Assembly (NCBI GenBank): GCA_964530185.1
Contig: CAZHBB010000003.1
Location: 13,563-77,562 of the forward strand
Source: an uncultured Anaerolineales bacterium
GTDB taxonomy: Bacteria > Chloroflexota > Anaerolineae > B4-G1 > SLSP01
DNA length: 64,000 nucleotides
Reading direction: 5' to 3'
Below the pieces are notes generated by a model. That model had not been told where the DNA came from, made no database searches, and saw nothing but the letters and a program-made list of their open reading frames with translations. Of the stretch, positions 3,456 to 42,877 are shown one piece after another; within the stretch, counting starts at the first letter, position 1; each line of letters starts with the position of its first letter. A program made the translations under genes and the position numbers.

Positions 3456-4250
3456 TCAATGGGGGTCAGGTAGGCGAAGCTCATCGCAGCTCTCGGCAAG
3501 CGAACACCCGCCGCATGTCGCACAGCCAGTAGGCATTGTCGAAGCCAAGTCTATCTCGTGAGTATGCGCAGCCGGAGGCGGCGCGAACAGGATGATCTGC
3601 CGGAGAACCTCCACCGCTTCAAGAGCATCCTCGCAATAATAGACCCCACCCCAGTAAGGCTCGCCCCCTCCAGGTGTAGCGACCCAACGGGCGAACGCTT
3701 CATCGACTGCAGGGCCACCCAGAAGCACAGGAGTACGCAGGCGGCGCCGCTGCAGCAATGAGACAAAAGTCTGAACGTGGGAGCGAGCAAGTCGGCTGTC
3801 CAGATAAAGCCCAAAAGCGTCCACATTCAGCGCCGAGCCCCGAGCTACGGCGATCGCCGGGGGACGTCGTCCGAGATCGTGCACGGTCAGACCGTGTCGT
3901 CTCAGGACAGCGTGCCACAGATAGCGCCCCACATCATGCCTGTCCCCCGCCATCGTCACCAGCGCGATCGAGCCTTCCAGGGACTCAACATCCTCCTGCG
4001 GGGCGTCCTCACAGCCACGAATCAAGGTCACGGCCACTCCTCGCAGGGCATCGGCCACCAGCCGTGCCTCATGGGGGTCAAATTGCGCCAATGACCGCTC
4101 ACCCTCTACCAGCACCACTTCCAGCACTTCGGTGTCGAAACTCGCATCACAGCAGGCCTCAAGGGCCGCCACCACGCCGGTGGCATCTCCCTGGCGTAAC
4201 GCTGTTCGGAGACGCAGAGGGCTTCCCTCTTGCTCTATATCTTTGGACAT
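3456..4250 (-). CDS. Cobalamin (B12)-binding domain protein with an N-terminal helical cap and a C-terminal Cys cluster
   Basis: Contains the canonical DxHxxG motif (MAGDRHDVG) followed by LLGG, typical of a B12-binding Rossmann domain. The preceding roughly 95 aa are helical (B12-binding_2-like). The C-terminus has CATCGGCSLAESC. There is no HTH domain. Confidence 0.6.
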   Translation of the reverse strand: MSKDIEQEGSPLRLRTALRQGDATGVVAALEACCDASFDTEVLEVVLVEGERSLAQFDPHEARLVADALRGVAVTLIRGCEDAPQEDVESLEGSIALVTMAGDRHDVGRYLWHAVLRRHGLTVHDLGRRPPAIAVARGSALNVDAFGLYLDSRLARSHVQTFVSLLQRRRLRTPVLLGGPAVDEAFARWVATPGGGEPYWGGVYYCEDALEAVEVLRQIILFAPPPAAHTHEIDLASTMPTGCATCGGCSLAESCDELRLPDPH

Positions 4251-13643: not shown

Positions 13644-13785
13644 CTCAGATACGATTACAGTCTACACGGTGTGGCGAGTGGCGCAAATCGAATCCGTAGG
13701 CAACGTCGTCTCGCCGAAGTTCTTTGCCCGGGGACCACTATGGAAAACATGGGCGCTGCGTCCAGCTGTGCTATACTATTGCACT

Positions 13786-16071
13786 ATGTCCGGATGGCAC
13801 GGTCAACAGTCCACCAGGCGTACACCATCAGCACGACGCGCTCTCAGAGATCGCAGTCTGTGGCTCATCATCATTGCCTTCTGGACCCTCGCGACGGCCT
13901 GGAACTTCATCGTCCCACCTTACGAGAACCTGGATGAACTGGAGCACGCTGAGGTTGTGCGCCATATCGTCATCACGGGGAAATTGCCCATCCATGGTAC
14001 TGCGGAGGCCGCAGGGTATCGCGTACGCCAGGAAGCATCTCAGCCCCCGCTTTATCATATACTTGCAGCTTTGTGGTCGCGGGCCCTGGGACTTCCTACT
14101 GACCCCCATGCCCCCGAGCCCACACCCCCCACTGTCGTGGCATGTGGGCTCACTGGCACTCTGTACAACAAAGCTACATGGATACACAATCCAGCGGAGG
14201 AGGCACTCCCCTGGCACGGTGCGATCCTGACACTCCATGCACTCCGGATCTTCTCAATGCTACTTCAGACCTTCACGCTCCTGGGGACATGGGTGCTGGT
14301 CAGACGGGTGTTTCCCGCGGGACCAACTGCGTGGCTGGCCACCAGCCTGGTCGCCTTCAACCCCCAATTCCTCCTCATGACCGCCGATGTCAACAACGAC
14401 AACGCCGTGGTACCGCTGGCGACATGGGGGCTAGTCCTCGCGTACGATCTCTGGCGCCACGGCCATCAAGGATGGCGAGCCTGGGTTTTGGGCCTCGTCA
14501 GCGGACTGGCCGCACTGAGCAAATTGAGTGGTCTGGGCGTCGCCGGACTGGGGCTTCTCGCGCTCATAGCCCGCTGGGCCCAGCGACGGGAATCCTTCAC
14601 TCGAACCGTATTGCACAGCGCGGCGATCATGCTGCCCGCGGCCCTGTTATTGGTCCCCTGGATCTGGCGCAACCTCCAGCTCTACAGTGACCCTACGGCG
14701 CTCGCGCCTATGTTGGAGAAAGTCGGGTACCGGACCAGCTCCCCAGGATGGGGGGATTTCTGGATGACGTGGGCTTCATTTTGGGGACAACTTCCGTGTG
14801 CTTTCTATCCCCGTGTTTTCTATCTTCCCTATGGCATCGTCACACTGGGCGGGTTAATCGGCCTGGCCCTTCAGTGGCGGCGGCTCTCACCCTCAGTGCG
14901 GGCCTTATCTCTCCTGTCCATCATCTGGTATCTGGTGATCACCGGAGCATGGTGGCGATGGAACACCATCACACCCGCTCCTGGTGGACGGCTCCTCTTC
15001 CCGGCGATAGCCGCAGGTGCCTTCATCCTCGCCACCGGGTGGCGGGTCGCGGGGAAACGTGCCAGCATGATCTGGAGCATTCTCCTCCCAATGTGGGTGG
15101 TGCTCACACTGCGCATAGGGCCAGTGGAGGCTTTTGCCTACCCACGTGTCCTGCCTGCTGCCAAATTCGCTAAGGGAATGTCGGTTGCGCAAGCTGGTGA
15201 CGCCATCAAACTCCTACACTACACGGCGCGTATCATCCCCCATGACCCAGCATGCGTCTTCGTCTCCCATGCGTATTGCCAGCCGACACTCGATCTGACG
15301 TTGACATGGCAGGCAGAGCGCTCCATAGAGCAAAACCTCACCATGGTGGTCCAATTCGTCTCCCTGGCTCCCGGCGACACCACTCTGCGTCTCAACTACA
15401 ACCACTGGCCCGGCCGAGGCAACCTACCCACTCGTCTCTGGCCCGTGGGCCAGCCCCTCCGCGACCATTACCGGATACCCTTGCCCCGATCGCCCTACGA
15501 GACCCAAGCCTGGCGTCTGACCGTGGCATGGGTAGATCCTGTCGACAGCTCCAGACTCCCGACATACAACGCCGCTGGGGAGCCAACGGGTAACGTGATA
15601 GACCTGGGGCTCTGCCGCGTGCCTGGCGTCGCCCCGCCTGAACCGGGCTGGCATCACCCTGCCACCCCCGTCGACTTTCGACTCTCTGGAGCCAGCCCGT
15701 GGGGCCTCCGGTTGAGTGACGCTCGTGTGACGCCCGGCTCACAAGGCGATCCATGGCAGGTCGCTCTCGTCTGGGAGAGCTTAGCGCCAATCGATAGCGA
15801 CCTGACAGTCTTCGTACACGCCTACGACTCGTCTGGGACCCTGTTGACAGGAGGTGACGGCCCACCGCGCGGGGGAACATTTCCGACGCACCTCTGGTTG
15901 CCGGGGGATCGGATCGTGGATAGCCACACCCTGGCGATCACGGAGGACATGGATGTGGAAGCCATCGCAGTAGGCCTCTACGACGCAACAACAGGCGCGC
16001 GCGCCGAGGCCTTGCAACAGGGACAGTTATTACCAGACGGTGCGGTCATCCTCTGGCGCGCCAAGCCATGA
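13786..16071 (+). CDS. GT-C-fold membrane glycosyltransferase (ArnT/PMT-like) with a repeated C-terminal extracytoplasmic domain
   Basis: Multi-TM N-terminal half with a YENLDELEH acidic motif in the first loop, consistent with the DE motif of GT-C enzymes. The C-terminal roughly 300 aa contain repeats of a domain with the pattern VFVH..D..G.L...D..P..G.YPT..W.PG..I.D.H.L. The start is ambiguous: the ORF track gives 13669, and 13786 is the first ATG downstream of a TATACT -10. Confidence 0.6.
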   Translation: MSGWHGQQSTRRTPSARRALRDRSLWLIIIAFWTLATAWNFIVPPYENLDELEHAEVVRHIVITGKLPIHGTAEAAGYRVRQEASQPPLYHILAALWSRALGLPTDPHAPEPTPPTVVACGLTGTLYNKATWIHNPAEEALPWHGAILTLHALRIFSMLLQTFTLLGTWVLVRRVFPAGPTAWLATSLVAFNPQFLLMTADVNNDNAVVPLATWGLVLAYDLWRHGHQGWRAWVLGLVSGLAALSKLSGLGVAGLGLLALIARWAQRRESFTRTVLHSAAIMLPAALLLVPWIWRNLQLYSDPTALAPMLEKVGYRTSSPGWGDFWMTWASFWGQLPCAFYPRVFYLPYGIVTLGGLIGLALQWRRLSPSVRALSLLSIIWYLVITGAWWRWNTITPAPGGRLLFPAIAAGAFILATGWRVAGKRASMIWSILLPMWVVLTLRIGPVEAFAYPRVLPAAKFAKGMSVAQAGDAIKLLHYTARIIPHDPACVFVSHAYCQPTLDLTLTWQAERSIEQNLTMVVQFVSLAPGDTTLRLNYNHWPGRGNLPTRLWPVGQPLRDHYRIPLPRSPYETQAWRLTVAWVDPVDSSRLPTYNAAGEPTGNVIDLGLCRVPGVAPPEPGWHHPATPVDFRLSGASPWGLRLSDARVTPGSQGDPWQVALVWESLAPIDSDLTVFVHAYDSSGTLLTGGDGPPRGGTFPTHLWLPGDRIVDSHTLAITEDMDVEAIAVGLYDATTGARAEALQQGQLLPDGAVILWRAKP

Positions 16072-18392
16072 ATACGATGGACAGAGTAGTTCGCTGGCCG
16101 GGGATTGCACGTGACCTATTGCTGATCCTGGTGGCCTTCACTATCCTGACCGCACTCTACAACCTATTTACTCCTATCTTTGAGGCCCCAGATGAAGTCT
16201 GGCACTACGCCCATCTCCGGTGGTTGGCTGAGGGACATGGATTGCCTTCTCTGATCGACGACCGCAGCGGCGCCTATCAGGAAGCCGCCCAACCCCCACT
16301 CTACTATGCCTCAGCCGCGCTTCTCAGCTACACCATTCCCGATGATGACCTTCCCTCCTTGATGTGGCACAATCCCGGTTTCGGGTTCCAGGCACCAGGG
16401 ACAGTCGCCGACAACAAGAACATGCTTATCCACACGACACGCGAGAGATGGCCCTGGCGAGGGGCGGTCCTGGCTGTCCACGTCGCCCGCCTCACCTCCT
16501 GGCTCTACGGGCTGATAGCCGTTTCCGCAGCCTGGGGCTTAGGAATGGAGACCTTCGGTGACCGCCACGGTGCTCGTCTCACCGCCGCATGGCTCGCCTT
16601 CCACCCACAGTTCGTTTTTATCTCCAGCGTGATCAACAATGACGCCGCCGCCACCGCCCTAGCCACGGTGGTGCTTTGGCGTTGTGCCCGGGCTTTGCGC
16701 CGCGGCATCCAACGATACGACAGCCTGCTATTGGGCATGGCAGTGGGGTTGGCCACCCTGGCTAAGACCAGTCTGCTGGCACTGATCCCCATCGGATTAG
16801 GGGCGATTGCCCTCGCACACGTGCTGCATCGAGGCAAGCACACGTCGTTCACCAACCGGTTCTCTCTCTCTTCTCTGGCCAGCTATCTGCTGGGCGTTGC
16901 CATCATAGGTGGATGGTGGTACGCACGCAACTGGATGCTCTACCAGGACCCACTTGGCCTTAGCACACACCTCAGAACCCCCTGGGGACGTCCAGCAACG
17001 CTTTCCCTGCCAGATCTCATCCCAGAGATCCCCCTGGTCTTGCGCTCATTCTGGGCAGCTTACGGGTGGGGACATGTGACATGGCCTCCAATCTACTACA
17101 TACTGCTCTGGACATTGGCGCTTTGCCTCATCGCCGCAGCCCTTTGGACACTGGGGCGCAACTGGTACACATGGCTTAAACGCCCTCAAGAGAAACGAGG
17201 GACAGGATTCTCCCTTCCAGAGCCATCGGTCCTGATAGCTACGCTCTCTCTCTTCTGGGCAGCCGCGATAGTCGCCGCGCTCGTCCACTGGATGCAACAG
17301 GTGGAGGCCCCTCATGGTCGCCTCCTCTTCCCGGCGTTAGGAAGCTGGGGGATTGTCCTCACATGGGGTGCGTTGGAGTTGCGGCATCGCTCACCCCGGC
17401 TCGGGATCCTCATCACGCGGGGCCTCCTGGGCCTCATGGCGACTTTAAGCATCCTGGCCCCAGGAGCCCGTATCGCCAGCACCTTCAGCATGCCGCGGCT
17501 CCTCTCGCCCTCAGAGATCACGACCCGGTGTGAGACACCGGTCAACCTGCATTACGACGAGCTCGCCCAGCTCTCATGCTTGAAGATCGAGCCACAGCGA
17601 GTCAGGGTAGGAGAAAAGGTCGCCGTAAGCGCCTGCTGGATCGCCCTGGCTCCTATCGAGCGAGACTACACCGTCTTCGTGCACATCCTGGGTCCAGATA
17701 TGATGCGCGTTGGAGAGCGTCATACATATCCAGGGCTGGGCAGGTATCCTACGACACTGTGGTCACCCGGATTGGGGTTCTGTGAGACCTATCGTGTGCA
17801 GATCTCCACCTGGGCTGAGGCCCCCCTGCGCTATCAGGTGGAAATTGGCCTATTCGAGCCCGAGACCGGCGCACGACTGCCCGTCACTGATGCCCTGGGC
17901 CACTCTATGGCTCCCCCGGTGGCAGGGCACCTGGTGATCACGCCACTTGAACCCTTCGAGCCAAGACCCAGCCGCTTACTCGCTGCCCACCTAGGTGAAG
18001 GGATTGAATTACTCGGTGCAGATATTCCCTCAGGCGCTCAAATCGGCGACCGCGTCCCCATCACCCTCTATTGGAAGGCCAAACACACTCTCGCCCACGA
18101 CTATGTCGCTTTCGTCCACCTGTGGCGACCTGGGGACAACGCACCTCTCGCACAACACGACAGTCAGCCCCGCGCAGGTTGGTATCCAGTATCCGCGTGG
18201 GGCCCCAACGACGTCATATCGGACACACACATCCTGGAGATTCCCTCGGCGATGACACCTGGCACGTACCCCTTATGGGCCGGGCTGTACGATCCCGTGG
18301 ATGGGACGCGGCTTGCAGCCTATGGCCCGGACGGGCGTTACACGGACGACTTAGTCCCCCTCGGCACAATCGAAGTGCAATCACCGCCCTAA
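16068..18392 (+). CDS. GT-C-fold membrane glycosyltransferase (paralogue of the upstream gene)
   Basis: The ATGA overlap with the upstream stop indicates translational coupling. An FEAPDEVWH motif is present, with the same multi-TM core and three copies of the C-terminal repeat domain (YTVFVHILGPD..., YVAFVHLWRPGD..., ...). Confidence 0.65.
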   Translation: MNTMDRVVRWPGIARDLLLILVAFTILTALYNLFTPIFEAPDEVWHYAHLRWLAEGHGLPSLIDDRSGAYQEAAQPPLYYASAALLSYTIPDDDLPSLMWHNPGFGFQAPGTVADNKNMLIHTTRERWPWRGAVLAVHVARLTSWLYGLIAVSAAWGLGMETFGDRHGARLTAAWLAFHPQFVFISSVINNDAAATALATVVLWRCARALRRGIQRYDSLLLGMAVGLATLAKTSLLALIPIGLGAIALAHVLHRGKHTSFTNRFSLSSLASYLLGVAIIGGWWYARNWMLYQDPLGLSTHLRTPWGRPATLSLPDLIPEIPLVLRSFWAAYGWGHVTWPPIYYILLWTLALCLIAAALWTLGRNWYTWLKRPQEKRGTGFSLPEPSVLIATLSLFWAAAIVAALVHWMQQVEAPHGRLLFPALGSWGIVLTWGALELRHRSPRLGILITRGLLGLMATLSILAPGARIASTFSMPRLLSPSEITTRCETPVNLHYDELAQLSCLKIEPQRVRVGEKVAVSACWIALAPIERDYTVFVHILGPDMMRVGERHTYPGLGRYPTTLWSPGLGFCETYRVQISTWAEAPLRYQVEIGLFEPETGARLPVTDALGHSMAPPVAGHLVITPLEPFEPRPSRLLAAHLGEGIELLGADIPSGAQIGDRVPITLYWKAKHTLAHDYVAFVHLWRPGDNAPLAQHDSQPRAGWYPVSAWGPNDVISDTHILEIPSAMTPGTYPLWAGLYDPVDGTRLAAYGPDGRYTDDLVPLGTIEVQSPP

Positions 18393-22588: not shown

Positions 22589-22859
22589 CCCGCAGCAACC
22601 CCAACTGGTTACAACCATTCCTGTTGGGGTGAGGCATATGGGATAATGCCGAAAGATCTGTGAGTAGCAGCCGCCGCAGCCGTCTCATTGGACTTCTGAG
22701 CGCCTTACGATAGAATTTAGTTAATTACTTCACCTACATCCCTGACATCCATTGTCGTCGTAACCTCAGCCCATTGAGGGCAACCAGACTTCACAGGCAG
22801 CCCGACGCCGAAGCATGGCCGTGGCTCGCTTGCTGACCTTACGAGTAGGGAGGTACTGA

Positions 22860-23966
22860 ATGAAGTCTTCCACGATTCCGATTACAGTTATCGGCGCTGG
22901 CAACGGTGGCAAATCCATGGCCGCTGATCTGGCAGTGAGAGGATTTCGGGTCACCCTTTATAACCGAACGGCAGCCAACATCGAGGCGATCAAGCTCCGC
23001 GGTGGCATCGAGCTGATCGATGAAGAGGGACGGCGCCGGTTTGGGCCCTTGGCATGCGTCACGAGCAGCATGGAGGAAGCGTTGGCCGAGGCCTCCCTGG
23101 TGATGGTGGTCATCCCGGCCAGCGGACACCGCGATGTGGCCCGGTTGGCGGCGCCTCACCTCCATGATGACCAAATCATTGTCCTAAACCCTGGTCGCAC
23201 CGGTGGGGCACTGGAGTTCTATGGCACCCTCATGCAGATGGCGTGTCCTGCCCGTCCCATTGTCTGCGAGGCAGAGACTTTCCTTTTTGCCGCCCGCAGC
23301 ACTGGTCCGGCGGAGGCCCACATCTTTCGCACCAAGTTCTCTGTACCAGTGGCCGCGATGCCCACGCGACGCACAGAAGAGGCCCTCTCTCTAATCCGCC
23401 AGGCCTACCCTCAGTTCATCCCAGCGCCCAGTGTGCTCCACACCAGCCTGAACAACATGGGAGCGATCTTCCACCCGGCACTGACGCTCCTAAACGCCGG
23501 ATGGATCGAGAGTACGCGAGGCAACTTTGAATTTTACATGGATGGTGTCACACCTTCGACTGCTCGCGTGCTAGAGGTGTTAGATCGCGAACGGGTCACG
23601 GTGGCGGCCGCCCTCGGCATCCGTGCACAGACAGCTCAAGAATGGCTGCGCCGTGCGTACAACGCTCAGGGGAGGACTCTCTACGACGCCATGCATGCCA
23701 ACTCAGGATACGCAGGGATCAAAGCGCCGCCTATCCTGGATCATCGTTACATCTTTGAGGAGATACCCTGCAGTCTGATCCCCATCACTGAACTGGGCCA
23801 CCAATACGGCGTCGATACCCCTACCATGCAGGCCATGATCCATCTGGCCAATATCATCCACGGCAAGGACTACTGGCGTGAAGGCCGCACCCTGGACAGG
23901 CTGGGAGTGCGCGGCATGTCGGTGCAAGAACTACATCAGTATGTCGCCACTGGCGAACGTCCTTGA
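22860..23966 (+). CDS. NAD/NADP octopine/nopaline dehydrogenase family oxidoreductase
   Basis: An N-terminal Rossmann motif (ITVIGAGNGGKSMAADLAVRGF) and a C-terminal opine-dehydrogenase-like domain in a 368-aa protein. Confidence 0.55.
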   Translation: MKSSTIPITVIGAGNGGKSMAADLAVRGFRVTLYNRTAANIEAIKLRGGIELIDEEGRRRFGPLACVTSSMEEALAEASLVMVVIPASGHRDVARLAAPHLHDDQIIVLNPGRTGGALEFYGTLMQMACPARPIVCEAETFLFAARSTGPAEAHIFRTKFSVPVAAMPTRRTEEALSLIRQAYPQFIPAPSVLHTSLNNMGAIFHPALTLLNAGWIESTRGNFEFYMDGVTPSTARVLEVLDRERVTVAAALGIRAQTAQEWLRRAYNAQGRTLYDAMHANSGYAGIKAPPILDHRYIFEEIPCSLIPITELGHQYGVDTPTMQAMIHLANIIHGKDYWREGRTLDRLGVRGMSVQELHQYVATGERP

Positions 23967-25633
23967 CCACTGTAGGGAAAGGAGATAAGTCCATGCGGAT
24001 CCTCGCAGGAGCTTTGGGAGACTGTGTCCACGTCGCTGGCGTCTTACACTTTCTCACTCTTGCCGAAGGTATGGGGCACGAGGTGCGCTTTACTGGCCCA
24101 GCCACAGATCCAGAGACCTGGGCAGAGCTTGCACGCGAATTTCAGCCCGACCTCATTGGTGTCAGTTATCGTCTGACCCCCGAGACTGCTCGGCGGGCAC
24201 TGCAGGAATTTTGGGAGGTGATGCGGGCGGCAGGCCTCAGCGACCGCACCTTCGTGTTTGGCGGCACCCCTCCGGTGGCTGCGGTTGCGCGTGAGCTCGG
24301 GTTCTTCGACGCCGTATTCGACGGCAGCGAGCCAGCCACTACCATCATCCAGTATCTACAGCAAAAGCCAGGGAAAATGGAAACCCAGGCCACGCCGCCC
24401 CAAGACGTGATAAGTCGTATCCAATGGAAGGCTCCCTACCCGCTATTACGCCACCACTACGGCATTCCGGCTGAGACGATCGAACCCACAGTAGAAGGCA
24501 TCATGCGCATAGCCGAAGCCCAGGCCCTTGATGTGATTTCGTTGGGGGCCGATCAAGAAGCACAGGAGCATTTCTTCCGTCCAGACCTTCAGAATCCCCG
24601 TAGCAGAGGGGCTGGTGGTGTGCCCTTCCGCACCGAGGAGGATCTGCACCGCCTGTACCAAGCCAGCCGCCGTGGCAATTTTCCCCTGATGCGATCCTAC
24701 TCGGGGACTGCTGACCTGCTCCGTTACGCTGACATGCTGGTTCGAACCATTCACAACGCCTGGTGTGCGACCTCACTCTTTTGGTTCAACGCCATGGATG
24801 GACGGGGACCGATGGATCTGGAGACCTCCATCCGTGAGCACCAGGCTCTGATGGCCTGGCACGGGGAGAGGGGCATCCCGGTGGAGGGCAATGAACCCTA
24901 TCACTGGGCCATGCGTGACGCGCCTGACGTCATCTCAGTGGCCGTTTCCTATCTTTACGCACACAATGCCAAGCTGGCTGGCGTGCGGGACTATATCACG
25001 ACCTACATGTTCGAAAGCCCTCCACAACTCTCGAACGCTATGGACCTGGCTAAAGCGTTGGCTCAGATCCGGGTCGCTGAGTCATTTGCTGATCAGGGAT
25101 TCCGAGTTTGGCGCCAAACCCGCACCGGCCTGCTCAGCTATCCGGTGGACCAGGCAAAAGCCCGCGCGCATCTGGCTGAGTCGATTTACCTCCAGATGGC
25201 CCTTCACCCTTCGATTGTGCACGTCGTCGGTTACTGCGAGGCCGATCACGCAGCCACCGCCGATGAAGTGATCGAGTCCTCGGCCATGGCCCAACAGGTC
25301 ATCGAGACAGCCCTCAGGGGACAGCCTGATCCCACCTGTGACCCCAAAGTCCAGGGACGGGCCGAGGAACTGGTGAGCGAGGCCATGACCCTCGTCGAGG
25401 CTATCCGACGCCTGGGTGAGGGAAAGAGCGAGGATCCCTTGAGTGACTCAGCCAACTTGGCACACGCAGTGCGCGTCGGGCTGCTGGATTGTCCCCAGCT
25501 CAAGGCCAATCCTTTCGCTCGAGGCGCAATCCGTACCCGAGCGATTGAAGGTGCTATCGTCGCGGTCGATGAATCGGGGCATCCCCTGTCCGAACGTGAG
25601 AGGATCCGCACCTTGGGACTCGGCCTGGCGTGA
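23963..25633 (+). CDS. Protein with an N-terminal B12-binding-like Rossmann domain and a large C-terminal domain of unknown function
   Basis: ATGA coupling with the upstream opine-DH-family gene. The N-terminal roughly 130 aa follow the B12-binding-domain pattern (ILAGALGDCVHVAG ... DLIGVSY ... FVFGG) but with a non-canonical DxxHxxG. The remaining roughly 420 aa show no motif I can assign. Confidence 0.35.
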   Translation: MTTVGKGDKSMRILAGALGDCVHVAGVLHFLTLAEGMGHEVRFTGPATDPETWAELAREFQPDLIGVSYRLTPETARRALQEFWEVMRAAGLSDRTFVFGGTPPVAAVARELGFFDAVFDGSEPATTIIQYLQQKPGKMETQATPPQDVISRIQWKAPYPLLRHHYGIPAETIEPTVEGIMRIAEAQALDVISLGADQEAQEHFFRPDLQNPRSRGAGGVPFRTEEDLHRLYQASRRGNFPLMRSYSGTADLLRYADMLVRTIHNAWCATSLFWFNAMDGRGPMDLETSIREHQALMAWHGERGIPVEGNEPYHWAMRDAPDVISVAVSYLYAHNAKLAGVRDYITTYMFESPPQLSNAMDLAKALAQIRVAESFADQGFRVWRQTRTGLLSYPVDQAKARAHLAESIYLQMALHPSIVHVVGYCEADHAATADEVIESSAMAQQVIETALRGQPDPTCDPKVQGRAEELVSEAMTLVEAIRRLGEGKSEDPLSDSANLAHAVRVGLLDCPQLKANPFARGAIRTRAIEGAIVAVDESGHPLSERERIRTLGLGLA

Positions 25634-25685: not shown

Positions 25686-25716
25686 AACAAAAAGGGACCC
25701 GTTTGTAACGGGTCCC
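25686..25716 (-). terminator. Intrinsic terminator downstream of clpB
   Basis: The hairpin GGGACCCGTT-TGT-AACGGGTCCC is followed on the minus strand by TTTTTG. Confidence 0.55.
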
Positions 25717-25733
25717 CTCGTGAGTTTCGGAGA

Positions 25734-33025: not shown

Positions 33026-34036
33026 ATGATCAAGAGGCGCTGGTTACCGCTCGTGGTGGTTCTTACTATTCTTGTCGGTCTATTGCCTCAGATGGTAGCG
33101 GCCCAAAGTCCAAACTATTACACGTCCGTTATCCTGAGCGACATTACATCCGGCGCACCAGTGGTCGGTGGTACATTCACGACTGATCTGAGCCTGTCAA
33201 TTGTGAATAATGCCACCCCACAACTCGGGGTGATGGGCGCAGATGTCTGGATCCGCTTTGATCCCACGATCTTAGCCGTGGATGATGCAGACGACAATCC
33301 CGCCAACGGCATTCAAGTTAGCATTTCGACCGAGTTCTTCGGCGGCTCCGTATTTGTCGCCGCCAACGAGGTCACCACCTGCCCCAGCGGTGGAACCTGC
33401 GTCCATCTGGCATTGAGTCACTCGGGCGCCCCTATCACCAACCGCACCGGAAAAATCGCTACGATCACATGGGCTGGACTGGCAGCGGGAGACGGGGGAC
33501 TTGAGGTCGCACTTCCGGAGACGGTGCTTGCTGACGTGAACGGGGCAGACGTCCCGATCAACAGCACCACCGTACCCGCTATCGCCGTAGTGGAGCCGGG
33601 GACCATCTCGGGTAAGGTTCTGCGTCAGGGGACACGGACCGATCACGCCAATACTGAGGTCGTGGCCTACAACACAGGTGGTGGCGTTGTTGGCACTGCC
33701 ACAACCCTGGCTGATGGTAGCTTCGAGCTGATTGTGCCGATCGGGGGATCCTACCTGGTCCAGGCATCTTACAACGGCTACCTTAAGGCACAGAAGAGCA
33801 GCGTCTATGTGGTGGGAGCTGCTGTTGATCTAGGGACCACCACCATCCTGGGCGGCGATGTCAACGGCGACAACAACGTCAACATCCTCGATATCGTGAC
33901 GATCATCAGCCGCTACGGGACCACAGGCTGGGCCCCAACTGAGCCCGCCGACATCAATGATGACGGCGAAGTGAACATCTTCGATCTGACAATCGCAGCA
34001 GGCAACTTTGGCCGCTACGGCCCGCTGGGATGGTAA
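33026..34036 (+). CDS. Secreted cohesin-like domain / carboxypeptidase-regulatory-like domain / dockerin protein
   Basis: Signal peptide and a GAGGAGG RBS. A cohesin-like beta-sandwich lies at the N-terminus, followed by a CarboxypepD_reg-like domain (GTISGKVL...DGSFEL...GSYLVQASYNGY). The C-terminus has two dockerin calcium-binding repeats (DVNGDNNVNILD, DINDDGEVNIFD). Confidence 0.65.
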   Translation: MIKRRWLPLVVVLTILVGLLPQMVAAQSPNYYTSVILSDITSGAPVVGGTFTTDLSLSIVNNATPQLGVMGADVWIRFDPTILAVDDADDNPANGIQVSISTEFFGGSVFVAANEVTTCPSGGTCVHLALSHSGAPITNRTGKIATITWAGLAAGDGGLEVALPETVLADVNGADVPINSTTVPAIAVVEPGTISGKVLRQGTRTDHANTEVVAYNTGGGVVGTATTLADGSFELIVPIGGSYLVQASYNGYLKAQKSSVYVVGAAVDLGTTTILGGDVNGDNNVNILDIVTIISRYGTTGWAPTEPADINDDGEVNIFDLTIAAGNFGRYGPLGW

Positions 34037-34068
34037 ACGGCCAATCGACCAAGTAGGGGGATAAAGTC

Positions 34069-35088
34069 ATGAAGTCCAATCGAGTGTTACGTTTGCTAAG
34101 CGCATGGCTCCTGCTCGCACTTGCTCTGTTGAGCACGCCAACGCCCCAGGCTCTGGCGGCCGATCCGGTCGTCAAGATCGTGCCCGCCACCAGCACCATC
34201 CAGGTAGGAGAGACCGTCGTGGTGAGCGTGACGGTGGAAAACGTCAGCAACCTCTTTGGAGCCGAATTCCATCTCTCCTTCGACGCCAGTATCCTCGAGG
34301 TCGTTGACGCCGACGCAGGCACCGGAGGCATCCAGATCAGCATGGGGGACTTCCTTGCTCCGGATTTCGTGGCCCAGAACCTGGCTGACAACGCCACTGG
34401 GACCATCGACTTCGCCATCTCTCAAATGGCCCCCCACGCTGCAGTGAGCGGCAGCGGCACACTGGCCACGATCACCTTCAAGGGCAAGGCGGCCGGGACA
34501 GCCAGCGTGAGCTTCACCAGCGTTTTGCTGGCGGACGCGGGCGGAGGACAGATTCCCTCCTCCTCACAGAACGCCACTGTCACTGTGACCAGCGGCGCAA
34601 CGGCAACTCCCTCACCCACCACACCGGCGCCTACGACACCGGCTCCGACCGCTTCGCCGACAACCCCACCTGCGACGACCACCCCACCCTCTTCATCATG
34701 CACTATCCAGGGGTACCACACGGTACGAGCAGGGGAGACGCTCTACTCCATCGGACGCGCCTATGCCACAGATCCCAACGCCATCGCCGCCTGCAACGGC
34801 ATTGTCAATCCCAGCCTTCTTTATGTGGGCACCCGATTGGGAATCCCAGTGGCTCCCTGGTCACCGATCCCACCCGGCCCTGTCGCAGTACGTCAGTTTA
34901 CCCCAGGTGGCAGCACGCCTGCCCCCTCGCCATCGACCGGCTGCCGTTATTACCACACAGTCCAATGGGGAGATACCCTGACCGCCATCGCACTTCGTTA
35001 TGGCTCTGACATCTGGAGCATTGGTCGCGCCAACTCCATCTACAACCTGAACCTCATCTACGCTGGACAGGTGTTGTGCATCCCATAA
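34069..35088 (+). CDS. Secreted cohesin domain protein with a Pro/Thr-rich linker and two LysM domains
   Basis: Signal peptide, then a cohesin domain (VVKIVPATSTIQVGETVVVSVTVENVSNLFGAEFHLSFDASILEV...GTLATITFKGKAAG), a PT-rich linker and two LysM repeats (YHTVRAGETLYSIGRAY..., YHTVQWGDTLTAIALRY...). Confidence 0.7.
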   Translation: MKSNRVLRLLSAWLLLALALLSTPTPQALAADPVVKIVPATSTIQVGETVVVSVTVENVSNLFGAEFHLSFDASILEVVDADAGTGGIQISMGDFLAPDFVAQNLADNATGTIDFAISQMAPHAAVSGSGTLATITFKGKAAGTASVSFTSVLLADAGGGQIPSSSQNATVTVTSGATATPSPTTPAPTTPAPTASPTTPPATTTPPSSSCTIQGYHTVRAGETLYSIGRAYATDPNAIAACNGIVNPSLLYVGTRLGIPVAPWSPIPPGPVAVRQFTPGGSTPAPSPSTGCRYYHTVQWGDTLTAIALRYGSDIWSIGRANSIYNLNLIYAGQVLCIP

Positions 35089-35169: not shown

Positions 35170-36678
35170 TCAGTGGAACGCACAACGGTACAGGAACAGC
35201 GACACTCCAGTGAAGTAGTAAGCCTCGTCGGTGCGACACGTGGTATCCAACCATGCCTTCACCAACTCACGCGCGTCCCACAGAGCGACTTCAGAGTAAA
35301 CAAGCCATACACGTTGGGTATCCCCTACGATGCGCGCCATCTCCTGGGTGACGTAACTCTCGCCTACCTGATAGCGGCCATCCGGCAACTGCCAGTTCGT
35401 GTATGGGGCTTCCGCCCATCTCCCCAGATCGCCATCTGCATAGAACGCATACACATAATGATTGTAAGGAATCTGAAACAACAGAAGATCGTCCTGTCCA
35501 CGTCGGGCGGTAACGACTTCCACCACGCGCTCGAACTGTGGTTTGATAGGATGAGCCATCTGCATCAACAAGCCATGGAGGTTGACGATCATCAACAGGG
35601 CCAGCAGGACAGCGGCCAGCGAGGGCCATCGGCGCCTCAAGGCATCTAAGCCAACCCCACCTAAGATATAGAAAGCTGGTGCGCTCCAGATCAAATACCG
35701 ATCGGTGAAGATCGGACTGCGCAAGGAGACAAGCCACACGGCCAGTAAGGGGAGAATGAGCCAGACCCCCAACTGAACCAGCCGCACCCTCCGGCTCAAC
35801 GCCAGCCGTACGAGCCCAGCCCATACCAACAGTGCAAAAGCTGTGACGATGACCCATAGTCCCGCTTCCCCACCCCAGCTTCCCTGATAGATGCCAGCGC
35901 TCCACCCCGTCAGCAGCATCTGTGCCATCTGCTCCAGCGAATAGCGGGGAAAACCTGTCTCCCGCTGTTGCAGGAGGAGGGGAAGTTGCCACTGCAGAAG
36001 TGGAAGATAGGGCAACACGAGCCCGGCAAGCACCAGCACGCCCCCAACTAGAGCCCGGGGGTGGCGGTCCCTGCAGAGCAGGAACCAGAGTACCAACACC
36101 GGAACCAAAAGGGCTGTCAGAATGTGGCTGTAGAATGCCAAACTCGCTGCCACCAACACCATTCCCCACCATACCAGGCGAGATGTTTGACAAGCTCTAT
36201 CCAAGGCATAGCACGCCAGGAGTACCAGAAAGGGCACCCAGGTGTACATCTTGATCTCCTGGGCATACCAGACCATGTATGGTGACAGAGCCGTCAACAG
36301 TGCGGCAATCATCGCGCCTCTCTTTCCACAGAGCCGCGTTGACAACCTGAAGAGCAAAGGGACGCTCAGCACTCCCCACAGCGTCGAGAGGAACCGCATG
36401 GCATAAGGGGTATCCCCCGCAAGCTCTATCCACGCCCGTAATAACATCGAATAGAGTGGACCATTCCATCCAGGCCGTGTCAGATTTGCCAGCAGTTCAC
36501 GCCAACCGAAGAATGCAAAGCGCCATTGGTCCACCTCATCCCGCCAGAGCCCCTGGCTTTGGATACCCATGAGGCGGACCAGATACGCCAGCAGGACTAA
36601 AGCGACGAGCACCAGCGTCATCTGGACAGGATGCTGCCTATGCCTACCTTGAACACGTCGCTTGGTCAATTGGTCCAC
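35170..36678 (-). CDS. GT-C-fold glycosyltransferase, ArnT/PMT (GT39/GT83)-like
   Basis: About 12 TM helices, with a WRDEVDQ acidic motif in the first extracytoplasmic loop. The 502-aa length is typical of 4-amino-arabinose/mannosyl transferases. Confidence 0.65.
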   Translation of the reverse strand: MDQLTKRRVQGRHRQHPVQMTLVLVALVLLAYLVRLMGIQSQGLWRDEVDQWRFAFFGWRELLANLTRPGWNGPLYSMLLRAWIELAGDTPYAMRFLSTLWGVLSVPLLFRLSTRLCGKRGAMIAALLTALSPYMVWYAQEIKMYTWVPFLVLLACYALDRACQTSRLVWWGMVLVAASLAFYSHILTALLVPVLVLWFLLCRDRHPRALVGGVLVLAGLVLPYLPLLQWQLPLLLQQRETGFPRYSLEQMAQMLLTGWSAGIYQGSWGGEAGLWVIVTAFALLVWAGLVRLALSRRVRLVQLGVWLILPLLAVWLVSLRSPIFTDRYLIWSAPAFYILGGVGLDALRRRWPSLAAVLLALLMIVNLHGLLMQMAHPIKPQFERVVEVVTARRGQDDLLLFQIPYNHYVYAFYADGDLGRWAEAPYTNWQLPDGRYQVGESYVTQEMARIVGDTQRVWLVYSEVALWDARELVKAWLDTTCRTDEAYYFTGVSLFLYRCAFH

Positions 36679-40373: not shown

Positions 40374-41348
40374 TTGCTTGCTTCACGAGTCGCGATGCAC
40401 ATCCCAGATGGGTTCCTGTCAGTGTGGCTCTGTTTGGCTCTATGGGTGAGTGCCGTCGTCATACTGGGCTACGCACTGAGACGGACCAACCGTGCTCTTG
40501 GCGAGCGCCATGTACCGCTCATGGGAGTTCTGTCGGCTGCCATCTTCGCTGGCCAGATGCTTAACTTCAGCGTGACCGGTGGCACGTCAGGCCATTTGAT
40601 AGGAGCCGCCCTGGCGACTGCTCTTCTTGGGCCATGGGCAAGCATCATTGTCATGAGCTGTGTCGTGGTGGTACAGGCTCTGGTCTTTCAAGACGGTGGA
40701 CTCCTGGCCCTGGGAGCCAACCTGGTCAACATGGCAGTCATCGGGGTGGCCGTTGCCCACTTTGCTTACACAACAAGCCAACGCCTGTTTCAGCGCAAAT
40801 CCTGGATGTTGACGGCCTCTGCGTTTGTCGCAGGGTGGCTCTCAGTCTTCGTGGCTTCCCTGGCTTGCGCCCTGGAACTGGCCCTCTCTGGCACGTCACC
40901 AGCCAACATCGCCGTGCCAGCCATGGCCAGCGTCCACGCACTGATCGGCATTGGCGAAGGCCTGATCACCGCTGGAGCTCTTCTCTTCGTGCAGGCTGTG
41001 CGCCCTGACTTGGTCCAGAGACGCGCAAGCATATCGTCCACTGGCAATAGGACACGGGCCGTTTGGGTTGGCGGACTGGCCATCGCTGTGATCCTGACGC
41101 TGATCGCACCGTGGGCCTCCAGCCATCCGGACGGACTGGAATGGGTGGCCGAGCAACATGGCTTTCTGGGTAACGCGCGTGGTCCCCTCTATCAGATCAT
41201 ACCCGACTATCTGGTGCCAGGGATTGCCGATGAACGCGTCGCCACCATTCTCGCGGGAATCATTGGGGTGATAATCGTGTCGGTCACTGCGTTCAGCGTA
41301 GGATCCTCCCGTCGAAGACGCAATACCACCGGAGACGCAACGGCGTGA
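40374..41348 (+). CDS. cbiM: ECF transporter substrate-capture component CbiM/NikM with a C-terminal PDGLE domain
   Basis: The hallmark MHIPDGFL N-terminus and CbiM TM core are present. The C-terminal roughly 100 aa contain a PDGLE motif (SSHPDGLEWVAEQ) plus a TM helix, resembling a fused CbiN/NikL-like element. TTG start 4 nt after AAGGAGGTG. Confidence 0.75.
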   Translation: MLASRVAMHIPDGFLSVWLCLALWVSAVVILGYALRRTNRALGERHVPLMGVLSAAIFAGQMLNFSVTGGTSGHLIGAALATALLGPWASIIVMSCVVVVQALVFQDGGLLALGANLVNMAVIGVAVAHFAYTTSQRLFQRKSWMLTASAFVAGWLSVFVASLACALELALSGTSPANIAVPAMASVHALIGIGEGLITAGALLFVQAVRPDLVQRRASISSTGNRTRAVWVGGLAIAVILTLIAPWASSHPDGLEWVAEQHGFLGNARGPLYQIIPDYLVPGIADERVATILAGIIGVIIVSVTAFSVGSSRRRRNTTGDATA

Positions 41349-42154
41349 CGCCGTTTGTTTTAGAACGCCACGTCAGGGGATCGAGCCTGATTCATAGGCT
41401 CGATCCCCGCGCGAAAGTGGGACTCGCGTTAGCCTTTATCCTCTCCGTGGCGTTTCTGCCTGCGGGTGCATGGCCTGCGTACCTCCTCCTCGGCGCGCTA
41501 TGGCTGGCCATTGTGCTGACGGCAGAGCTCCCAGCGCGGCTCATCGTTGCGCGGCTGGCGCTGACAACACCATTCCTCCTAAGTGCAGTTCCTCTTCTTG
41601 TAACCACACCAGGCACTGCACGTTGGACGCTCCCATGGGGATGGGTTATCACTGACGAAGGGGTGACACGGACGACCAGTATCCTGTTGCGCTCCATCCT
41701 CTCCGTTGGGATGGCAATTGTACTCACTGCTACCACACCAACTCTTCAGCTCTTTTCATCCCTTCAGGCGCTCGGTCTCCCTCGTAGCATGGTCGCCATC
41801 TTTAACCTGATGTGGCGCTACTTATTCGTGCTGGTGTCTGAAGCCCAGAGGCTTCTTCGGGCACGGGCAGCCCGCAGTGGTGTACTAAGGTCGACCAAGA
41901 CCAATAAAGGGCGAGTCAGCGGCGGGACACTGGCTTGGCGCGCCAGGGTCACTGGCCATCTGGCCGGCAGCCTCCTCATCCGAAGCTTGGAGCGTGCAGA
42001 GCGCACATACGATGCCATGTGTGCCCGCGGATACGATGGCACAGTGCGCACCCTCCCCCTTCCGCCACTCTCATGGAGGCAGAGGCTCCTCGCCGTGGGC
42101 ACGGCCCTGGGACTTATGCTGATCCCTTGGCTCGCCACGATCTTATGGAAATGA
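41345..42154 (+). CDS. cbiQ: ECF transporter transmembrane (T) component CbiQ
   Basis: Overlaps the cbiM stop. Matches the CbiQ family pattern (RLDPRAKVGLALAFIL...). Confidence 0.75.
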   Translation: MTPFVLERHVRGSSLIHRLDPRAKVGLALAFILSVAFLPAGAWPAYLLLGALWLAIVLTAELPARLIVARLALTTPFLLSAVPLLVTTPGTARWTLPWGWVITDEGVTRTTSILLRSILSVGMAIVLTATTPTLQLFSSLQALGLPRSMVAIFNLMWRYLFVLVSEAQRLLRARAARSGVLRSTKTNKGRVSGGTLAWRARVTGHLAGSLLIRSLERAERTYDAMCARGYDGTVRTLPLPPLSWRQRLLAVGTALGLMLIPWLATILWK

Positions 42155-42166
42155 TACAAGACCGAC

Positions 42167-42877
42167 ATGCATCATAACACGGTTAAAATTAAGCACCTCT
42201 CCTACCGCTACCCCGACGGACGATTGGCGCTGAACAAGGTCTCCCTTCGCATTGAAGCGGGCGAGAAAGTGGCGCTTATTGGGCCCAATGGCGCTGGGAA
42301 GTCCACGCTCCTTCTGCACCTCAATGGCCTTCTACTGCCTCAGACTGGCTCAGTGCACGTTTGCGACATCAAAGTGACTAAAGAGAACGTGGCCCACGTC
42401 CGTTCTGCGGTAGGATTGGTCTTCCAAGATCCTAACGACCAACTTTTCTCCCCTACTGTGTTTGAAGACATCGCCTATGGTCTCATTTACCGCGGTCTGC
42501 CGGAGCCTGAGATCAGAAAGCGTGTGCACTGGGCTCTCGAAGCAGTAGGAATGGGCTCTTATGCTGAGCGGGTAACTTACCACCTTAGTCTTGGAGAAAA
42601 GAAACGCATTGCCATCGCAACAGTGCTCCCGCTTGATCCCGATATCTTGGTCCTCGATGAACCAACCGCAGGCCTTGATCCTCGCGCGCGTCGCGAGCTT
42701 GTCGCGCTTTTGGAAAGCCTGCCCATAACCCAGCTCATCGCCACCCATGACCTGGCCCTGGCCTCCACTTTGTGCTCACGGACGGTGGTCATGGATGAGG
42801 GAGAGGTCGTCGCTGACGGCCCTTCAGAGGTAGTCCTGGCCGACAGCGACTTGCTGCTCGCCCATGGTCTGGCCTGA
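42167..42877 (+). CDS. cbiO: ECF transporter ATPase CbiO
   Basis: Walker A (GPNGAGKST), signature and Walker B motifs in a 236-aa protein. Confidence 0.85.
   Translation: MHHNTVKIKHLSYRYPDGRLALNKVSLRIEAGEKVALIGPNGAGKSTLLLHLNGLLLPQTGSVHVCDIKVTKENVAHVRSAVGLVFQDPNDQLFSPTVFEDIAYGLIYRGLPEPEIRKRVHWALEAVGMGSYAERVTYHLSLGEKKRIAIATVLPLDPDILVLDEPTAGLDPRARRELVALLESLPITQLIATHDLALASTLCSRTVVMDEGEVVADGPSEVVLADSDLLLAHGLA

What the first reader, a model, noticed from the sequence alone, without database searches (positions are those of the whole stretch)
22860..25633. Opine-dehydrogenase-family gene translationally coupled to a B12-binding-like multidomain protein of unknown function
The 556-aa product starts with a Rossmann-like domain following the cobalamin-binding-domain pattern (ILAGALGDCVHVAG...DLIGVS...FVFGG), but with DxxHxxG instead of the canonical DxHxxG. 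It continues with about 420 aa that I cannot assign; a distant resemblance to the glutamate-mutase E-subunit barrel is speculation only. The ATGA overlap with an NAD(P) opine-dehydrogenase-family gene suggests a two-enzyme pathway, for example an amino-acid rearrangement plus reductive condensation, that is not a textbook module.
Basis: inference. Interest (0 to 1): 0.5.

Follow-up and report, generated by a model that had tools for sequence, protein, structure and literature searches.

The report
Uncharacterised B12 mutase–opine dehydrogenase gene pair
This two-gene operon encodes an opine dehydrogenase and a single-chain relative of the vitamin-B12 enzyme glutamate mutase; the pair is conserved in many anaerobes, nobody knows what it does, and it probably carries out a B12 radical reaction that has not been described.

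Summary
Both genes are real. The upstream gene (22860-23966) is a genuine opine dehydrogenase close to Arthrobacter CENDH (E 2.5e-68). The downstream gene most likely starts at ATG 23993 (546 aa), not at the TTG that gives 556 aa. The junction reads TTGA, not ATGA.

At the aligned positions, the glutamate-binding arginine claw and Glu171 of glutamate mutase are replaced or deleted, while the counterpart of Glu330 is invariant. Related loci carry a MutL/GlmL-type gene next to the mutase or fused to it.

The dehydrogenase–mutase pairing holds in about 90% of Anaerolineae loci. It also holds, in either gene order, in Clostridia, Rikenellaceae and one probably archaeal contig. A 2009 genome paper noted what is very probably this operon as "role unknown".

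Best reading: an adenosylcobalamin-dependent isomerase with a new substrate, working with an opine dehydrogenase. The substrate remains unidentified.

The parts
22689..22716 (+). Weak sigma-70-like promoter match upstream of the operon (TGGACT-16-TAGAAT). Low evidential value.
   Evidence: 1 site found against 1.4 expected from shuffles, so it cannot be told apart from chance.
22860..23966 (+). Opine dehydrogenase family gene (368 aa), CENDH-like, with an NAD(P)-binding GAGNGG motif at the N-terminus.
   Evidence: Pfam Octopine_DH 1.1e-49. PDB 1bg6 CENDH E 2.5e-68 over residues 9-356. H205, R296, Y297 and E300 are invariant in nine mutase-linked homologues.
23980..23984 (+). Shine-Dalgarno AGGAG, 8 nt upstream of ATG 23993.
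   Evidence: Read directly from the sequence.
23993..25633 (+). Fused B12-binding/GlmE-like mutase gene (546 aa from ATG 23993). The longest ORF starts at TTG 23963 and gives 556 aa.
   Evidence: The 98%-identical homologue is 546 aa and the close homologues' consensus starts MRIL. AF2 model pLDDT 86.7.
23993..24367 (+). Cobalamin-binding Rossmann domain (residues 1-125) with no N-terminal cap domain.
24023..24040 (+). C11-V-H13-V-A-G16, a CxHxxG variant of the DxHxxG lower-ligand motif. His13 is the predicted cobalt ligand.
   Evidence: H13 and G16 are invariant in 30 diverse sequences. Cys in 118 of 119 close homologues and 45 representatives, Asp in 29 representatives. Asp in L041 and L051.
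24398..25312 (+). GlmE-type (beta/alpha)8 barrel (about residues 136-440) holding the presumed active site, including E416 (nt 25238-25240).
25313..25630 (+). C-terminal helical and beta-hairpin region (residues 441-546), homologous to the C-terminal part of GlmE.
   Evidence: hhalign aligns residues 441-541 with GlmE 355-441 at the highest confidence of the alignment.
25691..25719 (.). G+C-rich 13-bp hairpin between the convergent mutase and ClpB genes; probable terminator.
   Evidence: scored on the minus strand; 3 terminator-like sites found against 2.0 expected.

Best explanation
The two genes form an operon. The second product is a single-chain, probably adenosylcobalamin-dependent radical isomerase. 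Its B12-binding subunit (the counterpart of GlmS/MutS) is fused in front of a GlmE-type TIM barrel.

Inferred mechanism:
- Cobalamin binds base-off/His-on through His13 of a CxHxxG motif, with Cys11 taking the place of the Asp that normally hydrogen-bonds the His.
- The barrel covers the upper face of the corrin.
- Homolysis of the Co-C bond gives a 5'-deoxyadenosyl radical, whose ribose is held by Glu416 (the counterpart of GlmE Glu330).
- This radical abstracts a hydrogen atom from a small anionic substrate, and a 1,2-rearrangement follows.

The substrate is not glutamate bound in the GlmE manner, because the arginine claw and Glu171 are replaced or absent at the aligned positions. Other invariant basic and polar residues (R60, R153, H155, Y236, R271) suggest a carboxylate-bearing amino or dicarboxylic acid.

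The upstream CENDH-like opine dehydrogenase acts in the same short pathway, either before or after the mutase. It would catalyse an NAD(P)H-dependent reductive condensation of an amine with a 2-oxo acid (or the reduction of an imine), or the reverse reaction.

In most genomes the pair stands alone, so its input and output are probably common metabolites. In some lineages the product appears to be handed to ATP-grasp or AsnB-type ligases, sometimes inside glycan or cell-wall gene clusters.

Shown here: the domain identities, the fold, the motif conservation and the gene linkage. Inferred: cofactor use, radical chemistry and substrate class.
For: Fold and domains:
- PF02310 scores above its gathering threshold and PF06368 scores exactly at it.
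- The AF2 model is confident (pLDDT 86.7).
- Profile-profile alignment to GlmE gives E about 1e-5.

Cofactor site:
- H13, G16, S58 and G91 are conserved.
- The Rossmann domain starts at residue 1 with no cap domain, as in mutase small subunits.
- Cys11 is swapped for Asp in two homologues of 67% identity and in two distant clades.
- E416 aligns with GlmE E330 and is invariant.

Accessory gene:
- A MutL/GlmL-family gene (PF13941, 1.9e-173) lies next to the mutase in 11 of 71 Anaerolineae loci.
- It is fused to distant homologues that also carry CxHxxG (P0161, P0169).

Dehydrogenase partner:
- The partner is a catalytically intact CENDH relative.
- It is linked to the mutase in 64 of 71 Anaerolineae loci.
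- It is also linked in L085, L087, L089, L090, L094 and L097-L100, in both gene orders.

Ligase neighbours or fusions.

Genome context: the window carries a CbiM-CbiQ-CbiO type cobalt transporter and a second, canonical B12-binding protein.
Against: - No experiment exists. Nothing shows that this protein binds a corrinoid.
- The Asp of the His-Asp pair matters for catalysis in characterised mutases (my own knowledge). Its replacement by Cys could mean altered cofactor binding or none.
- Neither this window nor most related loci carry a MutL gene.
- No cobalamin riboswitch or any other Rfam element lies near the operon.
- The alignment of the N-terminal half of the barrel to GlmE, on which the R66 and R100 assignments rest, has low confidence.
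- The role and reaction direction of the dehydrogenase are pure inference.
- The E330 ribose contact is recalled from the literature and was not verified in a paper I read.
Confidence: 0.62

Rival explanations
1. It is a true glutamate (methylaspartate) mutase whose S and E subunits are fused. It would convert glutamate to 3-methylaspartate, which the dehydrogenase then processes, for example towards 2-oxobutyrate.
For: The best fold match is GlmE. Pfam Met_asp_mut_E scores at threshold. MutL genes are linked in relatives. The E330 counterpart is kept.
Against: Sequence identity to GlmE is only 14%. At the aligned positions R149 becomes Y236, E171 falls in a GlmE insertion that is absent here, Y177 becomes F265, R66 becomes H155 and R100 becomes Q191 (low confidence). 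These residues are invariant in real GlmE and bind the substrate (PMC10947579). No methylaspartate ammonia-lyase gene appears in any inspected locus.
Confidence: 0.06
2. It is a methylcobalamin-dependent methyltransferase or corrinoid protein, as in the 'methionine synthase' annotation that NCBI gives several homologues.
Confidence: 0.07
3. It is a PLP- and AdoCbl-dependent aminomutase of the ornithine 4,5- or lysine 5,6-aminomutase kind, followed by a dehydrogenase in the way Ord and Kdd follow those enzymes.
Against: No Lys is conserved in the Rossmann domain, where those enzymes anchor PLP (my own knowledge). The invariant residues in positions 1-125 are H13, G16, S58, Y59, R60, L61, F89 and G91. 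The partner is an opine dehydrogenase, not a diamino-acid dehydrogenase. The other ornithine or lysine fermentation genes are absent from the loci.
Confidence: 0.08
4. The B12-like domain is a degenerate relic. The Asp-to-Cys change abolished corrinoid binding, and the protein uses no cobamide. The barrel would then act as a non-radical enzyme, or Cys11/His13 would bind a metal.
For: The canonical Asp is missing in the whole major clade. One representative (P0153) has lost the motif altogether. Most loci lack MutL. No B12 riboswitch is present.
Against: His, Gly, Ser and GG are strictly conserved, which is not expected of a relic. Cys and Asp interchange between close homologues. CxHxxG proteins are fused to MutL or sit next to it. 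The counterpart of GlmE Glu330, the reported adenosyl-ribose ligand, is invariant.
Confidence: 0.15

Closest known systems
Glutamate mutase (methylaspartate mutase, GlmS/GlmE = MutS/MutE; PDB 1cb7, 1ccw, 1i9c, 6h9e)
   Same: - Shared scaffold motifs in the alignments: D89/D180, D96/D187, G124-x-P126/G209-x-P211, G151-T-x-D154/G238-T-x-D241, W167/W257 and E330/E416.
- No cap domain.
- A MutL/GlmL accessory gene in some relatives.
   Different: - One fused chain with the B12 domain first.
- Only 14% identity.
- CxHxxG in place of DxHxxG.
- The arginine-claw positions and Glu171 are not conserved.
- No methylaspartate ammonia-lyase neighbour; the partner is an opine dehydrogenase.
D-ornithine 4,5-aminomutase OraE (3kow) and lysine 5,6-aminomutase KamD/KamE (8t0v, 1xrs)
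   Same: - OraE is also a fusion of barrel and B12 domain.
- In their pathways a dehydrogenase acts next (my own knowledge).
   Different: - In OraE the B12 domain is C-terminal, whereas here it is N-terminal.
- No conserved PLP-anchoring Lys in the Rossmann domain.
- A different partner enzyme.
N-(1-D-carboxyethyl)-L-norvaline dehydrogenase (CENDH, Arthrobacter sp. 1C, PDB 1bg6), compared with the upstream gene
   Same: Full-length similarity at E 2.5e-68. The His and the Arg-Tyr...Glu motifs that align with CENDH H202 and R292-Y293...E296 are conserved.
   Different: The window protein has Glu where CENDH and most homologues have Asp (RYIFEE against RYFFED). To my knowledge the physiological role of CENDH is itself unknown, and no mutase partner has been described for it.
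The 'octopine dehydrogenase + cobalamin B12-binding protein' operon Hore_09740/Hore_09750 of Halothermothrix orenii (Mavromatis et al. 2009, PMC2626281)
   Same: The same gene pair with the same automatic annotations ('distant similarities to methionine synthase'). It was reported in anaerobic and thermophilic genera, among them Roseiflexus, which belongs to the same phylum as this window's relatives.
   Different: I could not fetch the H. orenii sequence, so membership in the same family is very likely but not verified by alignment. The paper offers no fold assignment, no motif analysis and no function.

Membership tests
Cobalamin-binding Rossmann domain (Pfam PF02310; His-on DxHxxG...SxL...GG type) | Profile match above the curated threshold, and the matching fold | tested here: met
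   [not shown]
Cobalamin-binding Rossmann domain (Pfam PF02310; His-on DxHxxG...SxL...GG type) | A His lower ligand followed by Gly at +3 | tested here: met
   H13 and G16 are invariant in 38 close and 30 diverse sequences.
Cobalamin-binding Rossmann domain (Pfam PF02310; His-on DxHxxG...SxL...GG type) | An Asp two residues before the His (the Asp-His pair) | tested here: not met
   Cys11 occupies this position. It is Cys in 118 of 119 close homologues and 45 representatives. Asp appears only in L041 and L051 and in distant clades.
Cobalamin-binding Rossmann domain (Pfam PF02310; His-on DxHxxG...SxL...GG type) | The Ser of SxL and the GG motif | tested here: met
   S58 (in SYRL) and G91 (in FGG) align with the canonical Ser and GG of 2yxb, 4jgi and 4r3u and are nearly invariant.
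Cobalamin-binding Rossmann domain (Pfam PF02310; His-on DxHxxG...SxL...GG type) | Actual binding of a corrinoid | not testable with these tools
   Needs purified protein and UV-vis or EPR spectroscopy.
Glutamate mutase E subunit (EC 5.4.99.1, Pfam PF06368) | A GlmE-type TIM barrel with the C-terminal extension | tested here: met
   [not shown]
Glutamate mutase E subunit (EC 5.4.99.1, Pfam PF06368) | The arginine claw R66, R100 and R149 that binds the two carboxylates of glutamate (PMC10947579) | tested here: not met
   The aligned residues are H155, Q191 and Y236. R149/Y236 comes from the default alignment. R66 and R100 come from a greedy, low-confidence alignment. All three Arg are invariant in true GlmE.
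Glutamate mutase E subunit (EC 5.4.99.1, Pfam PF06368) | Glu171, which contacts the substrate amino group, and Tyr177 | tested here: not met
   E171 lies in the GlmE segment NEGGG, which has no counterpart here. Y177 aligns with F265.
Glutamate mutase E subunit (EC 5.4.99.1, Pfam PF06368) | Glu330, which contacts the adenosyl ribose (from my own knowledge of the GlmE structures) | tested here: met
   E416 aligns with E330 in three alignments and is invariant in 30 diverse sequences. K326 aligns with V412 and is not kept.
Glutamate mutase E subunit (EC 5.4.99.1, Pfam PF06368) | The operon context of mutS-mutL-mutE with methylaspartate ammonia-lyase, as in E. coli O157 | tested here: not met
   No MutL in the window. 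MutL is present in 11 of 71 related loci. No methylaspartate ammonia-lyase in any inspected locus.
PLP/AdoCbl aminomutases (OraSE, KamDE) | A barrel of the same superfamily | tested here: met
   [not shown]
PLP/AdoCbl aminomutases (OraSE, KamDE) | A conserved Lys in the Rossmann domain that forms the internal aldimine with PLP (my own knowledge) | tested here: not met
   No invariant or nearly invariant Lys in residues 1-125.
Opine dehydrogenase family (Pfam PF02317; CENDH/OcDH), for the upstream gene | Profile match and full-length similarity to a solved member | tested here: met
   PF02317 168.8 bits against a cut-off of 30. 1bg6 E 2.5e-68 and 3c7a E 7e-9.
Opine dehydrogenase family (Pfam PF02317; CENDH/OcDH), for the upstream gene | The catalytic His and the Arg-Tyr-x-x-Glu-Asp segment, plus a GxGxxG dinucleotide fold | tested here: met
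   GAGNGG at residues 12-17. H205, R296, Y297 and E300 are invariant in nine mutase-linked homologues. Position 301 is Glu here and Asp in most others.
Opine dehydrogenase family (Pfam PF02317; CENDH/OcDH), for the upstream gene | Reductive condensation of an amino acid with a 2-oxo acid | not testable with these tools
   Needs an enzyme assay.
Cobalamin-dependent methionine synthase (the name some sources give to homologues) | Homocysteine- and folate-binding barrels, a B12 cap domain and an AdoMet reactivation domain | tested here: not met
   [not shown]

The most novel reading that the evidence does not exclude
This may be a representative of a large, phylogenetically broad and still uncharacterised class of adenosylcobalamin isomerases. 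The class is found in Chloroflexota, Clostridia including Oscillospiraceae, Bacteroidota and Asgard archaea.

It would have two new features. First, it uses a Cys-His pair instead of the near-universal Asp-His pair beneath the cobalt. Second, it rearranges a substrate that no known B12 enzyme acts on. Candidates are an opine-type secondary-amine dicarboxylate made or consumed by its obligate opine-dehydrogenase partner, or the substrate of an orphan activity such as the long-reported but never cloned B12-dependent leucine 2,3-aminomutase. In either case the pair would define a new two-step route in anaerobe amino-acid metabolism.
Probability: 0.4. Interest if true: 0.8.

Novelty: new variant of a known kind. 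Interest (0 to 1): 0.6.

Why it matters
To my knowledge only about a dozen adenosylcobalamin-dependent isomerase reactions are known, and new ones are rare.

This family has thousands of members: more than 7,000 database clusters around the window protein and another 7,700 or more around a Clostridia member. They come from environmental Anaerolineae, Clostridia (Oscillospiraceae and relatives), Rikenellaceae and Asgard archaea.

The family keeps the hallmarks of a radical B12 mutase but has a remodelled substrate pocket and a Cys in place of the Asp that tunes the cobalt ligand. It is also tied to an opine dehydrogenase, an enzyme class whose roles in free-living bacteria are poorly understood.

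Identifying the reaction would add a B12-dependent function to models of cobamide demand in anaerobic communities. It would also explain a conserved operon flagged as 'role unknown' since 2009, and test how much the Asp-His pair really matters for Co-C bond chemistry.

Tried and rejected
- To place the GlmE active-site residues I fetched the E. coli O157 glutamate mutase operon by accession, built a GlmE profile and ran hhalign. The N-terminal half aligns only in greedy mode, so the R66 and R100 assignments are tentative. I had no access to model coordinates for a superposition.
- The Foldseek afdb50 library was unavailable. I therefore could not link the family to named UniProt entries such as Hore_09750.
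- The Rfam search found nothing in the window or in six related loci. Permissive scans of the long leaders upstream of two Firmicutes operons gave only chance-level hits.
- Literature searches on opine dehydrogenase with B12, on the Pfam accessions and on 'CxHxxG' found no characterisation. Only the 2009 remark surfaced. The Thermotogales B12 paper does not discuss the pair.
- Source names for 20 distant representatives were uninformative.
- I considered a link to LysW-type lysine biosynthesis, because that cluster lies next to the pair in L097. I rejected it because it is convergent and absent from the other Firmicutes loci.
- Clustering of neighbouring ORFs across 79 loci showed no further conserved neighbour beyond the dehydrogenase, MutL and AsnB.
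Full report
**What is in the sequence.** Two same-strand ORFs occupy 22860-23966 (368 aa) and 23963-25633 (556 aa from a TTG). The junction reads CC-TTGA-CC, so the overlap is TTG with TGA and not ATGA. An AGGAG at 23980-23984 lies 8 nt before ATG 23993. The 98%-identical homologue is 546 aa, other close homologues are mostly 540-575 aa, and their consensus begins MRIL. The second gene therefore almost certainly starts at 23993, giving 546 aa after a 26-nt spacer. A strong hairpin at 25691-25719 separates it from the convergent ClpB gene. Upstream is an ABC-2 transporter pair. None of the flanking genes is conserved next to the pair in other genomes. The related loci identify the organism as an Anaerolineae-type Chloroflexota.

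**The upstream gene.** It is a genuine opine dehydrogenase: Pfam Octopine_DH 1.1e-49 and full-length similarity to Arthrobacter CENDH 1bg6 at E 2.5e-68. Nine dehydrogenases that sit beside homologous mutases in different lineages share 27-63% identity. They keep H205 and R296-Y297-x-x-E300 invariant, and these positions align with the His and the Arg-Tyr...Glu segment of CENDH and octopine dehydrogenase.

**The motif.** DxxHxxG is true of this sequence but is not what is conserved. Across 30 diverse family members H13 and G16 are invariant, and S58 and G91 (the canonical Ser and GG) are nearly so. The Asp at His-3 varies (D/N/E/S/Q/P). The residue at His-2, where every textbook enzyme has Asp, is Cys in 118 of 119 close homologues and in 45 of 75 cluster representatives whose N-terminal motif could be read. 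Another 29 representatives, in two distant clades, have the canonical Asp (NDPHTxG and DAHTLG). Two Anaerolineales homologues of 67% identity read NDVHVAG (L041 and L051). Cys and Asp are therefore interchangeable at this position within the family. That argues for a working His-on site with a Cys-His pair rather than a dead domain. I found no paper describing a CxHxxG variant.

**Is it a glutamate mutase?** No. I fetched the E. coli O157 glutamate mutase operon, mapped it onto the C. cochlearium structure numbering, built a GlmE profile and aligned the profiles. The substrate-binding residues of GlmE are R66, R100, R149, E171 and Y177 (PMC10947579), and all are invariant in true GlmE. Here R149 aligns with an invariant Tyr (Y236), E171 falls in a five-residue GlmE segment that is absent, and Y177 aligns with F265. 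In a greedy, low-confidence extension R66 aligns with H155 and R100 with Q191. Scaffold motifs are shared (D89/D180, D96/D187, GxP, GTxD, W167/W257). GlmE E330, which to my knowledge holds the adenosyl ribose, aligns with the invariant E416 in all three alignments. The family has its own invariant residues: R60 in the B12 domain, and R153, H155, Y236, D269, R271, E298, D312 and H410. Together these point to an adenosyl-radical site kept around a remodelled pocket for a different, probably anionic, substrate. A PLP-dependent aminomutase is unlikely because no Lys is conserved in the Rossmann domain.

**MutL linkage.** A gene with a full-length MutL/GlmL match (PF13941, 1.9e-173) lies beside the mutase in 11 of 71 informative Anaerolineae loci. 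In four of these the dehydrogenase is absent. Distant homologues with the same CxHxxG motif are fused to a MutL domain (P0161, 1226 aa; P0169, 1266 aa). MutL is the accessory gene of glutamate mutase operons. The window itself has none.

**The pairing.** Among the 71 loci with room upstream, the architectures are as follows.

| Architecture | Loci |
|---|---|
| ODH > mutase | 51 |
| ODH > AsnB-type amidotransferase > mutase | 5 |
| MutL > ODH > ODH > mutase | 4 |
| MutL > mutase | 4 |
| Mutase alone | 3 |
| MutL > ODH > mutase | 2 |
| ODH > MutL > mutase | 1 |
| ODH > ODH > mutase | 1 |

The pair recurs far outside Anaerolineae:
- A homologue of 46% identity sits in ODH-mutase-ATP-grasp-peptidase C26-DUF3335-PfkB (L085).
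- A homologue of 44% identity overlaps its dehydrogenase by 4 nt (L094).
- A probably archaeal contig has ODH-mutase-Ddl-like ligase (L089).
- A Clostridiales member of the DxH clade lies beside Alg14/Alg13-type glycosyltransferases and cell-wall-binding proteins (L090).
- A Rikenellaceae member lies inside a polysaccharide cluster with two ATP-grasp ligases, PGA_cap, a DegT aminotransferase and dTDP-sugar genes, with the dehydrogenase 3 kb downstream (L087).
- Four Firmicutes loci (Oscillospiraceae and relatives, Anaerolentibacter hominis) have the order reversed, mutase then dehydrogenase, as a stand-alone pair among unrelated housekeeping genes.
- One representative is fused to a glutathione-synthetase-like ATP-grasp domain (P0127).
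- One cluster belongs to Promethearchaeota.

A pairing that survives inversion of gene order and transfer across phyla is strong evidence that the two enzymes work on one pathway.

[quoted passage not shown] This is very probably the same pair. I found no later characterisation. Database names are 'cobalamin-dependent protein', 'methionine synthase', 'methylmalonyl-CoA mutase cobalamin-binding subunit' or 'hypothetical'.

**Most likely mechanism.** The product is a base-off/His-on adenosylcobalamin isomerase whose barrel caps the corrin. Substrate binding would trigger Co-C homolysis, and the adenosyl radical (ribose held by E416) would abstract a hydrogen atom and start a 1,2-shift in a small carboxylate-bearing molecule. 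The CENDH-like dehydrogenase would either supply the substrate or consume the product through NAD(P)H-dependent reductive condensation or imine reduction, or the reverse. Because the pair usually stands alone, its input and output are probably ordinary metabolites. Where ligases (ATP-grasp, AsnB) or glycan genes accompany it, the product is probably built into peptides or cell-surface polymers. Only the domain identities, conservation and linkage are shown here. Cofactor, chemistry and substrate are inferred (confidence about 0.6 for 'AdoCbl radical isomerase coupled to the dehydrogenase'; the substrate is unknown).

**Genome context for B12.** The window also encodes a CbiM(+PDGLE)-CbiQ-ATPase cobalt or nickel ECF transporter (40374-42874). 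It encodes a second B12-binding-domain protein with a canonical DRHDVG motif (3459-4250, minus strand). This fits a cobamide-using organism. No cobalamin riboswitch was detected.

**Verdict.** It belongs to a very large uncharacterised family that is tightly linked to an opine dehydrogenase. It is a new variant of a known enzyme kind, already glimpsed in 2009, and a good target for finding a new B12-dependent reaction.

Noticed in passing
window 40374-42874 (+): CbiM fused to a PDGLE (CbiN-like) domain, CbiQ and an ABC ATPase. This is an ECF-type cobalt or nickel uptake system, which fits a genome that makes or uses cobamides. No riboswitch was detected upstream.
   Followed up: partly
window 3459-4250 (-): A second B12-binding-domain protein (264 aa; PF02310 3.4e-6, below the gathering score). 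It has a canonical GDRHDVG motif, an N-terminal cap-like region and a Cys-rich C-terminal tail (CATCGGCSLAESC). It lies next to an M20 peptidase (2114-3442) and an arginine-deiminase/amidinotransferase-fold gene (1315-2136).
   Followed up: partly
L045 4497-5981; also four other Anaerolineae loci: A glutamine-hydrolysing asparagine-synthase-type amidotransferase (Asn_synthase 8e-77) is inserted between the dehydrogenase and the mutase. This hints that the pathway product carries a carboxylate that is amidated.
   Followed up: partly
L063 3770-5975; also L064 and others: Two tandem opine-dehydrogenase paralogues (43-45% identical to the window protein), preceded by MutL, lie upstream of the mutase.
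   Followed up: no
P0161 and P0169 (MutL fusions), P0127 (ATP-grasp fusion), P0133 (C-terminal Peptidase_M15-like region): Distant family members are fused to a MutL domain, to a glutathione-synthetase/RimK-like ligase, or to an M15 peptidase-like region. In L092 the MutL-fused form lies after oligopeptide ABC ATPases and an AAT/peptidase C45 gene, with no dehydrogenase.
   Followed up: partly
L097 11723-19674: In one complete Oscillospiraceae-type genome the mutase-dehydrogenase pair is convergent with a full LysW-type alpha-aminoadipate lysine/arginine biosynthesis cluster (HCS, aconitase, Iso_dh, LysX, LysY, LysZ, LysJ, LysK). The other Firmicutes loci do not repeat this, so it is probably coincidental.
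   Followed up: partly
L097 8588-9000 and L098 8338-9000: Non-coding stretches of 400-660 nt lie upstream of the Firmicutes mutase genes. They contain no convincing ORF and match no Rfam family, so an unrecognised leader or regulatory RNA is possible.
   Followed up: partly
window 33026-35085 (+): Adjacent genes encode a dockerin/CarboxypepD_reg protein and a cohesin plus double-LysM protein. A cohesin-dockerin pair is unusual in an Anaerolineae-type genome. The same pair is present in the 98%-identical MAG (L001).
   Followed up: no
window 13669-18392 (+), 35173-36678 (-) and 45234-48566 (-): Several large membrane proteins resemble PMT_2/ArnT-type glycosyltransferases. One (1111 aa) is fused to NHL repeats. 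The two at 13669-18392 had no precomputed Pfam hit for their 98%-identical counterparts in L001 and were not scanned directly.
   Followed up: no
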